A stretch of 64,000 nucleotides of DNA, from positions 1 to 64,000 of IMG/VR virus record IMGVR_UViG_3300050821_001858; one strand, 5' to 3'. Below, piece by piece: positions 55,564 through 64,000 of the stretch. The notes beneath the pieces are model-generated. The model made no database searches and had not been told where the DNA came from. It saw nothing but the letters and a program-made list of their open reading frames with translations. This DNA comes from a virus. Numbering within the stretch: position 1 is the stretch's first letter; the number at the start of each line of letters is the position of its first letter. The translations under genes were made by a program, and so were the position numbers.

Positions 55564-55638
55564 GCCTCTATCGTATAGTGACTATTACACCACCTTTGTA
55601 ACGTGGATACTTCAGTTTGATTCTGAATAGGGGCTCCA
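55564..55638 (+). tRNA. tRNA-Thr(TGT)
   Basis: Cloverleaf, CCA. Confidence 0.8.
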
Positions 55639-58286: not shown

Positions 58287-58457
58287 CTAGGGGGCTTCTT
58301 TGCCCCCTTCCTTTTATTTAAATAAAACGAAGAAATGGGTTCGATTCCCATACTTTTATAGGTCGCGGAAAGCCCGTTCGAAAGGGTAGACACAGACACC
58401 GAAAGTAGAGAGTAATTAACTCGAAATCACTATTAAAGTGAGCCATATGGATACGGC

Positions 58458-58558
58458 ATTCGTTGCTATAAGAGCGGAAACGGAGATTGTTCGAATCCTC
58501 CCTGCGCCGACAGGCGTTGTAGTTTAATGGGCAAAACACCGCTCGCCTATAGCAGAAT
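58458..58558 (+). ncRNA. Circularly permuted tRNA-like RNA (Y RNA/YrlA-like topology)
   Basis: T arm precedes D arm; acceptor stem capped by GACA; ends pair as a long stem. Confidence 0.7.
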
Positions 58559-58563
58559 TTTAT

Positions 58564-58639
58564 GGGTCATTCGCCAAGTGGAAAGGCACGGGTTTTACAC
58601 GCCCTGATTGCGAAGGTTCGATTCCTTCATGACCTACCA
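58564..58639 (+). tRNA. tRNA-Val(TAC)
   Basis: Cloverleaf, CCA. Confidence 0.85.
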
Positions 58640-58831
58640 GATGTCTCGGGAGTGAGAGGGCGACAGTCGAAAATTTTTTGAAAAAATTCTTGACTGTCCC
58701 TTCGACTTGCTGTAGAGTACTGAAACTGAGAACAGAGTTGAGAGAAATCGAAACACAACATAGGAGGCAATCATGTGACCGCAAGGTCATAAACAGCCAA
58801 CAACTTTAATTGTTTTTGTGTGTAAAAGTGT

Positions 58832-58930
58832 GTAGAGAGTTTAAAGGTTAGGGAGAAATCACGGTTCGAGTCCGTGCGTTGTGGGGAAACCTGCTTTGTC
58901 GTCTAATGGTTAGGACGCTCCCGTTTCTAT
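58832..58930 (+). ncRNA. Second circularly permuted tRNA-like RNA
   Basis: GGGAG-T arm-GAAA-capped stem-D arm-CTCCC. Confidence 0.7.
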
Positions 58931-59958
58931 TCGTCTTTGGACGGATTAGGGCAAGCCCCCCTGAATGTGTGGGTATTAATATCAGAAAGTGTGTTATCAC
59001 AAGGTAGTGTACACTACCTACCTACCGGGAGATAGGTACGCAAGCCTATCTCCCATTTAAAATTATCAGATGTATTACAGATTGGGGGCATAGCCTCGTC
59101 AGGATAAGCCAGGGTGACTTGGTAAAAGCGGTAAGTCTTCCTACAGACCCGCACTATTAGCAATAATAGCCCATCTATGCAGGTCCGGTCTTCCCCGTGA
59201 GGGGCAATCGATGGCATCGGTTGTAAAGCAGGACGGTTAGGTAAGGTCGAAAGATAGGTTCGAGGGTAACACTGTAGAGCCAAGTCCCGAAAGGACACCT
59301 TACGTTCAAACTAACTTACTGTGTATAGATAACGGATAGTGGGATACAGAGCATGAGACTTGCAATCTAATGCGACCCGCAAAATGGAGGATAATGGCTG
59401 ACGTTAACACAGTCGGACAGCATCCAAGAATTTGGTTTAGTAGCTCGCAAGGCGAAGGACAGTTGCCGTGTTGTATTTGGTACCTCAAAAGGGTATTGAG
59501 CAACAGTCGCAGCACGTCAAGTAGGTTTCCGATAATTGAAACTAGGTGTTTCAATCTCACTGTGAATGAGATGTCGGTTGGTTCAAATCCAACTTATCAT
59601 GCAGAAAAAGCAAAGTCTGCGACTGTGTTGAATGAAAGTGGTTTAATCCTATGAGTCCTTTGGACTAACATAGGGGATTTGTTACTCGCAAGGTGACAGT
59701 CTTTGATAGCGTGATTTGTCATAGAGGGTTAGCCCCCTCGAATAGCTCGCAAGGCTAGTGGTGAAAAGCATGTCGAATAGTTCAACATGAAAGAGGTACC
59801 GCCCCCTCTATAATCAAGGCAACCATGTGACGATACTGGATAGTTGTCCAGTGGAAATCGGGGAACCTTTCTTAAATGTGCGCTCCGTCGCCGCATCCCT
59901 CGCAGGATGGAGGATAATCCCGTAAGTTGTCATGTAGAACCCGTATTCTCAGGGTTTT
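58930..59958 (+). ncRNA. GOLLD-like giant structured ncRNA
   Basis: About 1 kb without a credible ORF, many GCAA/GAAA hairpins, segments I recall as GOLLD-like (GTTGTATT..CTCAAAAGG..GCAAC; GCTCGCAAGG; terminal CCCGTATTCTCAGGG), within a tRNA cluster; boundaries approximate. Confidence 0.75.
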
Positions 59959-59959
59959 A

Positions 59960-60088
59960 TCTTTTTATCGCGTGGGTGTCCAATGTTCCGATGTGCAGGA
60001 CACATCTGGCTTGACCATTGCGCGGAGTAATCCCAGGTCAAGGAATAACTGATTACCAGTCGGAACAACCTTCCACGCGATAAGAGGA
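59960..60088 (+). ncRNA. Unknown multi-stem RNA
   Basis: TATCGCGTGG/CCACGCGATA, TGTTCCGA/TCGGAACA, CTTGACC/GGTCAAG nested stems. Confidence 0.6.
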
Positions 60089-60262
60089 TAATGAAATGTA
60101 TTTTCAAACAACATCAAAAGCTATTAAGCAATGGTTACTTGATAGTAGAATATCTCTTATCTATGAAAGATATGATAACCCATTTAATGATTTTTTTCTC
60201 CGGTTATATCAAACACAGATTAATAATAATGTACATTTTGTAATTCGACAACATTTATTTAC

Positions 60263-60495: not shown

Positions 60496-60594
60496 GCCTC
60501 GGTAGCTTAGAAAATAGAGCGCATCCCGTTTAATATTCATATGGTGGATATTGGGAGGGGTGAGACGTAGGTGAAATACCTACCAGAGGCACCA
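60496..60594 (+). ncRNA. tRNA-like RNA with greatly extended anticodon arm
   Basis: GCCTC/GAGGC-ACCA acceptor, T-loop TGAAATA, about 40-nt anticodon arm. Confidence 0.7.
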
Positions 60595-63963: not shown

Positions 63964-64000
63964 TGCTAGCGACCAAGGATTTGGGACCTCGGCTGTGAAC
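63964..64000 (+). tRNA. Probable tRNA-His(GTG), truncated by window end
   Basis: Loop CT-GTG-AA after a TTGACA promoter; 3' half missing. Confidence 0.5.

What the first reader, a model, noticed from the sequence alone, without database searches (positions are those of the whole stretch)
59531..59599. tRNA-His-like cloverleaf embedded inside the GOLLD-like RNA
GATAA, D arm GAAAC-TAGGT-GTTTC, ATCTCA-CT GTG AA-TGAGAT, T arm GTTGG-TTCAAAT-CCAAC, TTATC. It has only a 5-bp acceptor and no CCA, so it is probably not chargeable and is a displayed domain. A separate tRNA-His appears to start at about 63964. Its 5-bp D stem, 5-nt loop and 6-bp anticodon stem layout resembles the amber tRNA at 25187. 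Inference: tRNA cargo or decoy displayed on the large RNA, or a processing signal.
Basis: partly seen in the sequence, partly recalled or inferred. Interest (0 to 1): 0.7.

Follow-up and report, generated by a model that had tools for sequence, protein, structure and literature searches.

The report
tRNA-His look-alike inside phage GOLLD RNA
A tRNA-shaped piece with a histidine anticodon really does sit in the central linker of a giant cage-forming phage RNA (GOLLD), but it lacks the parts a working tRNA needs, and such inserts are already known for this RNA family.

Summary
Window 59531-59599 (+) folds as a cloverleaf with anticodon GTG. ARAGORN calls it tRNA-His and Rfam's tRNA model scores it 31.5 bits (cut-off 29). 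It lies inside a true GOLLD RNA (Rfam RF02032, 174.5 bits, 59461-59955). Homology to relatives extends the GOLLD back to about 59041.

The module fills the variable linker between the last 5' hairpin and the 3' domain. Published work already reports tRNAs or pseudo-tRNAs at this site, and cryo-EM places the linker inside the RNA cage.

I found 15 further distinct GOLLD loci in IMG/VR with a tRNA-shaped module at the same place. They carry at least ten different anticodons. Their D, anticodon and T stems covary. None has a complete 7-pair acceptor stem, and none has an encoded CCA, whereas 154 of 158 free tRNAs in the same loci encode CCA.

The window's copy is the least tRNA-like of these. It has a 5-bp acceptor, neither type of tRNA-His identity end, and C14/G21 in the D loop.

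Best reading (about 0.55): a tethered tRNA mimic that stays part of the GOLLD RNA and is not a working tRNA-His. The scan has noted GOLLD-embedded tRNAs before, in at least 44 other genomes. This is a new member of a known kind.

The parts
59041..59460 (+). GOLLD 5' domain. The start is approximate.
   Evidence: nhmmer alignments of window 58560-60100 to 20+ GOLLD loci begin at window 59041-59079 and run through the 3' domain. The best is L052, E = 2.9e-55. No Pfam hit for the overlapping ORFs.
59461..59522 (+). Last hairpin before the linker (Rfam GOLLD model positions 1-62, loop TCAAAAG)
   Evidence: cmscan alignment.
59523..59530 (+). Short 5' spacer. Together with the end of the hairpin it carries a motif, AGTAGGT, conserved among relatives.
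   Evidence: Alignment A1, columns 21-28.
59531..59599 (+). tRNA-His-like module. Acceptor 59531-35/59594-98 (5 bp). D arm 59538-59552. Anticodon arm 59554-59572 (GTG at 59562-64). Variable loop 59573-76. T arm 59577-59593. Unpaired A at 59599.
   Evidence: Homologous modules with covarying stems in relatives.
59600..59604 (+). Short 3' spacer (no CCA)
59605..59955 (+). GOLLD conserved 3' domain, starting with the A-rich conserved core motif
   Evidence: cmscan alignment, model positions about 116-416. The nhmmer profile of 3' domains also matches.
63965..64000 (+). 5' part of a free-standing, unusual tRNA-His-like gene that continues to contig position 64041. It has G1.U72, A73 and CCA, and anticodon GTG. 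It is not part of the GOLLD, but it bears on whether the embedded module is needed for decoding.
   Evidence: Acceptor-end features match the alpha-proteobacterial tRNA-His type that lacks G-1 (PMC3064791).

Best explanation
The segment is a tRNA-shaped domain built into the interdomain linker of a phage GOLLD RNA. It hangs from the linker by a 5-bp stem that stands in for the acceptor stem.

It keeps the tRNA features that make the L-shape and the anticodon arm:
- G18-G19 in the D loop
- a canonical T loop
- a 7-nt anticodon loop with U33, GUG and A37

It has lost what aminoacylation needs:
- a full 7-bp acceptor stem
- a tRNA-His identity end
- a CCA or a free 3' end

Most likely it is not released. 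It stays part of the roughly 0.9-kb RNA. When GOLLD protomers assemble into their 10-14-mer cage, one copy per protomer ends up in the lumen, where the linker lies in the solved env-38 structure.

Inferred mode of action: a multivalent, tethered tRNA mimic that engages some factor recognising the tRNA elbow or anticodon arm. Candidates are a host or phage tRNA enzyme, an anticodon nuclease, a synthetase or the ribosome.

Shown here: the anatomy, the position, the recurrence in relatives and selection on the stems. Inferred: non-release, luminal location in this particular RNA, and any binding partner.
For: 1. The host RNA is a real GOLLD and the module lies in the model's unstructured linker.

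2. [quoted passage not shown] A Mycolicibacterium GOLLD holds a tRNA-Phe in J13/15 (PMC12990946). In M. aubagnense the embedded 'pseudo tRNA' gave no separate northern signal (PMC6582537).

3. There are 15 further distinct IMG/VR GOLLD loci with a tRNA-shaped module ending 0-25 nt before the 3' core. 13 of the 16 loci scanned reach the Rfam GOLLD cut-off.

4. The stems covary. For the anticodon and T stems, 97.5% of cells are paired, 51 cells are changed on both sides, and 0 of 500 shuffles reach this. RNAalifold recovers the D, anticodon and T arms de novo, with 12 of 16 pairs showing compensatory changes.

5. Acceptor and 3' end: 0 of 14 ARAGORN-called linker modules have 7 paired acceptor positions (they have 5-6), and three more modules have only 3-4 bp. 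Among free tRNAs of the same loci, 135 of 158 have 7. CCA is encoded in 0 of 14 modules against 154 of 158 free tRNAs. In this phage 29 of 30 free tRNAs encode CCA.

6. Anticodons differ between otherwise near-identical GOLLDs. L050 and L055 differ at 5 of the 7 anticodon-loop positions, against about 12 differences in the other roughly 930 nt. Two modules carry a Ser anticodon (TGA) on a short-variable-loop body, which cannot be a bacterial tRNA-Ser (established knowledge: SerRS needs the long variable arm).

7. The window's module has neither G-1:C73 nor G1-U72/A73. A free tRNA-His-like gene with G1.U72-A73-CCA exists 4.4 kb downstream.

8. All four stems of the window's module are perfectly paired. 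They differ from the closest relative (L052) by compensatory changes, so it is not decaying.
Against:
- Several relatives' modules look like good tRNAs apart from one acceptor mismatch and the missing CCA. Rfam scores them 52-64 bits, similar to free tRNAs. Excision cannot be excluded for the family.
- Bacteria can add CCA after transcription.
- The phage encodes its own RNase P RNA, which would fit processing.
- The scan that found the relatives required a canonical T loop, so T-loop conservation is partly ascertainment.
- In the context of its flanks, the single-sequence minimum-energy fold is not the cloverleaf.
- No binding partner is known, and no site in the GOLLD covaries with the anticodon.
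Confidence: 0.55

Rival explanations
1. It is a genuine tRNA-His gene nested in the GOLLD precursor. RNase P (host or phage-encoded) and a 3' endonuclease excise it, the CCA-adding enzyme completes it, and it decodes CAY codons. The cage may store it until release ('inhibited storage').
For: - It has a canonical anticodon loop, T loop and G18-G19.
- It is the only tRNA-His that ARAGORN finds in the 113-kb contig.
- A phage RNase P RNA lies 8.6 kb downstream.
- Relatives' modules score 52-64 bits as tRNA.
- The storage idea is published (PMC12990946).
- Within the partial loci the linker anticodon is mostly not duplicated among free tRNAs: 8 of 11 loci have no duplicate. This is about what chance would give.
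Against: - The acceptor has 5 bp, then C.A and C.U.
- There is no G-1:C73 and no G1-U72/A73, the two known bacterial HisRS identity sets (PMC3064791).
- The D loop has C14/G21 instead of A14/A21.
- There is no CCA, while 29 of 30 free tRNAs of this phage encode it.
- Its Rfam score is the lowest of all tRNAs in the window (31.5 against 37-65 bits).
- A free tRNA-His-like gene with a proper end exists at 63965-64041.
- The anticodon is swapped on unchanged bodies in relatives.
- M. aubagnense showed no separate pseudo-tRNA signal.
Confidence: 0.15
2. It is a processing signal. The tRNA shape recruits RNase P and/or RNase Z to nick the GOLLD between its 5' and 3' domains, in the manner of tRNA punctuation or mascRNA. 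The by-product has no decoding role.
For: - The module sits exactly at the domain boundary, with only 3-8 nt of spacer on each side.
- The phage and its closest GOLLD relative's contig both encode RNase P RNA.
- The 3' domain alone can assemble (PMC12990946).
Against: - Four other contigs with linker modules, one of them 100% complete, have no RNase P RNA, although host RNase P would do.
- Many GOLLDs, including the solved env-38 type, have a plain AU-rich linker with no module. Cleavage is therefore not needed for assembly.
- Selection keeps a canonical anticodon loop and D arm, which RNase P and RNase Z do not need.
- The short acceptor and missing CCA make it a poorer RNase P substrate (established knowledge of bacterial RNase P substrate recognition).
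Confidence: 0.15
3. It is a decaying relic of a once-functional captured tRNA with no present role, or a chance cloverleaf.
For: The window's module is the most deviant of the 16 (lowest Rfam score, shortest regular acceptor). One megaphage GOLLD (L014) has an even more degenerate insert.
Against: - All four stems are perfectly paired, and they differ from the closest relative by compensatory changes.
- The loops keep the canonical residues.
- Chance is excluded by E = 2.8e-4 in the 1.4-kb search plus homologous modules at the same site in relatives.
Confidence: 0.08

Closest known systems
GOLLD RNA (Rfam RF02032) with a tRNA or pseudo-tRNA in its interdomain linker (J13/15). Reported in Weinberg et al. 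2009 as cited by PMC6582537, in Kretsch et al. 2025 (PMC12286853), and for the Mycolicibacterium tRNA-Phe case (PMC12990946).
   Same: Same RNA family (above the Rfam cut-off). Same insertion site between the 5' and 3' domains. Same setting in a phage tRNA island. Same covalent attachment through the acceptor stem. The M. aubagnense copy is likewise called a pseudo-tRNA.
   Different: The anticodon is His (GTG). The acceptor is reduced to 5 bp. The D arm is extended to 5-7 bp with a 5-nt loop, and the anticodon stem can have 6 bp. The phage also encodes RNase P RNA. I could not read the primary descriptions (Weinberg 2009, Morgado 2020), so I do not know how far the missing CCA and incomplete acceptor were already noted.
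Canonical bacterial or phage elongator tRNA-His
   Same: Cloverleaf, GUG anticodon with U33 and A37, T loop, G18-G19.
   Different: No 7-bp acceptor, no G-1:C73 or G1-U72/A73, no CCA, no free ends, and C14/G21 in the D loop.
Other tRNA-like domains inside larger RNAs: the tmRNA tRNA-like domain, plant-virus 3' tRNA-like structures, and MALAT1 mascRNA (recalled from general knowledge, not tested here)
   Same: A tRNA shape reused within a larger transcript.
   Different: Those either keep a chargeable 3' end (tmRNA, viral structures) or are excised by RNase P and RNase Z (mascRNA). This one is internal, keeps a full anticodon arm and lacks an acceptor end.

Membership tests
GOLLD RNA (RF02032) | Covariance-model score at or above the curated cut-off over the full model | tested here: met
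   174.5 bits against 150, model 1-416, window 59461-59955.
GOLLD RNA (RF02032) | Less conserved 5' domain upstream, joined by a variable linker to the conserved 3' domain | tested here: met
   Homology to relatives from about 59041. Linker at model positions about 63-115.
GOLLD RNA (RF02032) | Phage or prophage origin, near a tRNA island | tested here: met
   IMG/VR virus record. 31 ARAGORN tRNAs on the contig, with tRNAs flanking on both sides.
GOLLD RNA (RF02032) | Self-assembly into a 10-14-mer RNA cage | not testable with these tools
   Known only from cryo-EM of env-38 and S. agalactiae GOLLD.
GOLLD linker tRNA / pseudo-tRNA | tRNA-shaped element on the same strand, between the last 5' hairpin and the 3' core | tested here: met
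   Same place in 15 other distinct loci.
Functional elongator tRNA-His | tRNA covariance-model score above the cut-off | tested here: met
   31.5 against 29 bits. This is marginal and appeared only in the small-region scan. Free tRNAs of the window score 37-65 bits.
Functional elongator tRNA-His | 7-bp acceptor stem (8 bp with G-1) | tested here: not met
   5 bp, then C.A and C.U.
Functional elongator tRNA-His | HisRS identity end: G-1:C73, or G1-U72 with A73 in the alpha-proteobacterial type | tested here: not met
   Read as a 5-bp stem, the end is G-C followed by A. Read as a 7-position stem, it is C.U followed by G. Identity rules are from PMC3064791.
Functional elongator tRNA-His | Encoded CCA, which is the rule in this phage, or a free 3' end | tested here: not met
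   No CCA, whereas 29 of 30 free tRNAs of the contig encode it.
Functional elongator tRNA-His | Release as a roughly 75-nt RNA and aminoacylation | not testable with these tools
Functional elongator tRNA-His | Core tertiary nucleotides U8, A14, A21, G18-G19, T54-Psi55-C56 | tested here: inconclusive
   G18-G19 and the T loop are present. Positions 14 and 21 are C and G, and a T is available for position 8.

The most novel reading that the evidence does not exclude
The linker modules are anticodon-arm decoys. Each GOLLD cage would carry 10-14 tethered, non-chargeable tRNA bodies. Their anticodon loops are exchanged quickly between related phages (Lys, Asn, His, Gln, Glu, Met, Arg and others) to soak up or misdirect a host tRNA-targeting defence, such as an anticodon nuclease, or another anticodon-reading factor. 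That would give GOLLD its first concrete function.
Probability: 0.1. Interest if true: 0.8.

Novelty: new member of a known kind. Interest (0 to 1): 0.3.

Why it matters
GOLLD is one of the largest natural RNAs of unknown function, and it forms RNA-only cages. The tRNA-shaped insert in its linker is one of the few clues to what the cage does.

This window adds one more example, with a His anticodon. The comparison made here adds a small, testable generalisation for one clade of environmental phage GOLLDs:
- The inserts keep the tRNA body and a canonical anticodon loop under selection.
- They never have a complete acceptor stem or a CCA.
- They can swap anticodons on an unchanged body.

That argues against simple 'tRNA storage' and for a tethered mimic. 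It does not reveal a new kind of element.

Tried and rejected
- blastn of the GOLLD against deposited phages: only the 5' hairpin matched (Roseobacter/Ruegeria phages and Xanthomonas phage XacN1). There was no full-length relative.
- Metagenome scan for the exact anticodon-arm plus T-arm of this module: 0 hits. No close relative with the His module was found. The nearest GOLLD (L052) is only about 59% identical.
No named host was obtained.
- A site within the GOLLD that pairs with the module's anticodon (T-box-like specifier): no alignment column matched the anticodon complement in more than 4 of 16 sequences. The 5-mer complements were no more frequent than controls (1.38 against 1.21 per sequence). 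Rejected.
- Does the linker anticodon complement or duplicate the free tRNA set? 3 of 11 loci have a duplicate, about what chance gives. Inconclusive.
- Module identity against GOLLD-domain identity: positive but modest rank correlation (0.38-0.52, against 0.83 between the two domains; the pairs are not independent). This is compatible with mostly vertical descent plus some exchange, and is not decisive.
- Kinship with the amber tRNA at 25187: 55% identity, which is background. Rejected.
- Protein-coding reading of the overlapping ORFs 59370-59654 (+) and 59306-59560 (-): no Pfam match. Rejected in view of the RNA evidence.
- Rfam scan of 58300-59100 for a known family covering the 'permuted tRNA mimics' noted by other first readers: nothing beyond tRNA-Val.
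- Papers not held: PMC7549688 (Morgado 2020) and the identifier I tried from memory for Weinberg 2009.

Full report
**What is there**

The window is the first 64 kb of a 113,066-base IMG/VR virus record, estimated 63% complete. It carries a large tRNA island: 31 ARAGORN tRNAs and a tmRNA on the contig.

Rfam's GOLLD model (RF02032) matches 59461-59955 on the + strand over its whole length, at 174.5 bits against a cut-off of 150. nhmmer comparison with GOLLD loci fetched from IMG/VR shows that homology starts further upstream, at about 59041-59079. The RNA is therefore about 0.9 kb with a 5' domain, as expected for the family. A weak promoter-like site at 58690-58718 would allow a longer transcript, but that is only a consensus match.

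**The flagged segment**

- ARAGORN calls tRNA-His(gtg) at 59529-59602. It has to draw the two outer acceptor pairs as C.A and C.U mismatches.
- Rfam's tRNA model aligns exactly 59531-59599 at 31.5 bits (cut-off 29, E = 2.8e-4 in a 1.4-kb search), with a 5-pair acceptor. This is the lowest tRNA score in the window; the others score 37-65 bits.
- Alone, the 69 nt fold into the cloverleaf as the minimum-energy and centroid structure (z = -2.64). With flanks included, the single-sequence prediction prefers another fold. Thermodynamics alone is therefore not decisive.

The module keeps a canonical T loop, G18-G19, and a 7-nt anticodon loop with U33 and A37. It deviates in several ways:

- The acceptor has only 5 bp.
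- The D loop can close by a C-G pair, giving a 5-7-bp D helix with a 5-nt loop, in place of A14 and A21.
- The anticodon stem can have 6 pairs.
- There is no CCA.

**Where it sits in the GOLLD**

In the cmscan alignment the module fills the AU-rich, unpaired stretch of the model (positions about 63-115). This stretch lies between the first hairpin (59461-59522) and the conserved A-rich core that opens the 3' domain (59605 onward).

This is the 'variable linker' of Kretsch et al. In the env-38 cryo-EM structure it is disordered and faces the interior of the 14-mer cage. [quoted passage not shown] A 2026 review names a tRNA-Phe in J13/15 of a Mycolicibacterium GOLLD and proposes 'inhibited storage' (PMC12990946). 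Behra et al. found a predicted 'pseudo tRNA gene' inside the M. aubagnense GOLLD and saw no separate transcript on northern blots (PMC6582537).

The phenomenon is thus known. Earlier notes of this scan record it in at least 44 other genomes.

**Relatives**

Scan 1 of IMG/VR used a GOLLD 3'-end motif and returned 46 loci. The roughly two dozen with the GOLLD core are mostly env-38-like, with a plain linker of about 45-50 nt and no module. One, in a 607-kb contig (L014), has a degenerate tRNA-like insert.

Scan 2 looked for a tRNA T loop followed within 8-38 nt by the GOLLD core motif. It gave 21 loci that match a profile of GOLLD 3' domains. Of the 16 distinct loci later scanned with Rfam, 13 reach the GOLLD cut-off. 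The other three are cut short by the locus ends.

In all of them a tRNA-shaped module ends 0-25 nt before the core, as in the window. The anticodons are Gln CTG, Glu TTC, Lys CTT and TTT, Asn GTT, Met CAT, Arg TCT, Pro TGG and AGG, and TGA.

A third scan, for the core motif alone, added three GOLLDs with short linkers and no module. The linker therefore comes in two states, and the module state is recurrent.

**Selection on the module**

Across the 16 distinct modules:

- In the anticodon and T stems, 97.5% of cells are paired. 51 cells are changed on both sides. No shuffle out of 500 and no slid register comes close.
- RNAalifold predicts the D, anticodon and T arms de novo, with compensatory changes in 12 of 16 pairs.
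- The window's module differs from its nearest relative (L052, Glu anticodon) by compensatory changes in the acceptor, anticodon and T stems.

**What the modules lack**

| Feature | Linker modules | Free tRNAs in the same loci |
|---|---|---|
| All 7 acceptor positions paired | 0 of 14 called by ARAGORN (they have 5-6) | 135 of 158 |
| CCA after the discriminator | 0 of 14 | 154 of 158 |

Three more modules that ARAGORN misses have only 3-4 acceptor pairs. In this phage, 29 of 30 free tRNAs encode CCA.

I must qualify this. In several relatives (L066, L071, L081, L067, L100) the acceptor is short of complete by only one pair or mismatch. Rfam scores those modules at 52-64 bits, like ordinary tRNAs. 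'Never complete' holds, but 'always badly truncated' does not. The window's copy is the extreme case.

**Anticodon behaviour**

L050 and L055 are near-identical GOLLDs. They differ at about 17 positions in about 940 aligned nt, and 5 of those fall in the 7-nt anticodon loop, changing Lys CTT to TGA. L103 and L060 differ by six substitutions over about 1,135 aligned nt, one of which changes the anticodon.

A TGA (Ser) anticodon on a body with a 4-5-nt variable loop cannot be a bacterial tRNA-Ser. This follows from established knowledge of SerRS identity and was not tested here. The anticodon loop therefore seems free, or driven, to change without regard to aminoacylation identity.

**Histidine identity**

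Bacterial HisRS needs G-1:C73. The alpha-proteobacterial deltaG-1 type needs the anticodon plus U72 and A73 (PMC3064791). The embedded module has neither end.

By contrast, a free-standing cloverleaf at contig 63965-64041 has a 7-bp acceptor with G1.U72, A73, CCA and the same anticodon loop. Its D and T arms are odd, and neither ARAGORN nor Rfam detects it. If it is real, the phage does not need the embedded module for decoding, and its host may be an alpha-proteobacterium of the deltaG-1 group. The only blastn hits of the GOLLD hairpin include Roseobacter and Ruegeria phages, which is a weak hint in the same direction.

**Interpretation**

Selection keeps an L-shaped body and a canonical anticodon arm, but not a chargeable end. 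The site is the cage-interior linker.

I therefore favour a tethered tRNA mimic that remains part of the GOLLD RNA (0.55). The step from 'mimic' to 'binds a tRNA-recognising factor' is inference.

The rivals are:

- An excised, working tRNA-His (0.15). It is disfavoured by the acceptor, the identity end, the missing CCA and the free alternative gene.
- A cleavage signal for RNase P or RNase Z (0.15). It is attractive because the phage encodes a class-A RNase P RNA at contig 68571-68937 (167.8 bits), and the nearest relative's contig does too (146.8 bits). However, module-bearing GOLLDs occur in contigs without one. Many GOLLDs have no module. RNase P would not require the conserved anticodon arm.
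- A decaying relic or chance (0.08). It is disfavoured by the perfect stems and compensatory changes.

A test for a site inside the GOLLD that pairs with the anticodon was negative.

**Novelty and score**

This is a confirmed, cleanly delimited new member of a known kind: a GOLLD with a linker tRNA or pseudo-tRNA. The His anticodon and the strongly reduced acceptor are particular to this copy.

The comparative points may or may not be in the primary GOLLD papers, which I could not read. These points are no CCA, an incomplete acceptor and anticodon swaps. Interest is modest.

Noticed in passing
Contig G000 68571-68937 (+), outside the window (L002:5571-5937). Also G004:C1:31363-31691 (-), locus L265.: Phage-encoded bacterial class-A RNase P RNA inside the tRNA island (167.8 bits, cut-off 100). 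The contig of the closest GOLLD relative has one too (146.8 bits). Four other GOLLD contigs do not. Two text searches found no paper on phage-encoded RNase P RNA.
   Followed up: partly
window 63965-64000, continuing to contig 64041 (+): Free-standing tRNA-His-like cloverleaf with G1.U72, A73 and CCA. These are the acceptor features of the alpha-proteobacterial tRNA-His that lacks G-1. It has an unusual D arm (4 bp, 4-nt loop) and T arm (4 bp, non-TTC loop). Both ARAGORN and Rfam miss it. No close homologue was found in one IMG/VR scan.
   Followed up: partly
L050:767-875 and L055:243-351 (both on the - strand): Two near-identical GOLLDs whose linker modules differ at 5 of the 7 anticodon-loop positions (Lys CTT against TGA). 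The rest of about 930 nt differs at about 12 positions. This looks like a loop swap or strong diversifying change.
   Followed up: partly
window 60496-60591 (+): tRNA-like gene with a 24-nt insert in the anticodon loop region. Rfam tRNA scores it 32.2 bits. ARAGORN in intron mode calls Pro(ggg), with a CCA end.
   Followed up: no
window 55564-55635 (+): tRNA-Thr(tgt) found by Rfam (45.6 bits) but missed by default ARAGORN. It was recovered with a lowered threshold.
   Followed up: no
window 25187-25262 (+): Lone amber-reading tRNA (anticodon CTA, labelled 'Pyl' by ARAGORN only because of the anticodon), far from the tRNA island. It has an imperfect 6-position anticodon stem and an encoded CCA.
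   Followed up: no
window 58640-59040 (+): About 400 nt between tRNA-Val and the start of GOLLD homology, with only short ORFs. Other first-stage notes claim permuted tRNA mimics here and at 58458-58558. Rfam finds no family there, and the stretch is not homologous to the GOLLD relatives.
   Followed up: partly
L014 (IMG/VR contig of 607,744 b), about 100 nt upstream of its GOLLD core: A megaphage GOLLD whose linker holds a degenerate tRNA-like insert with a non-canonical T loop and anticodon loop.
   Followed up: no
Contig G000 91516-91878, outside the window: Phage-encoded tmRNA, permuted type by ARAGORN's mark, with a tag peptide ending in ALAA.
   Followed up: no
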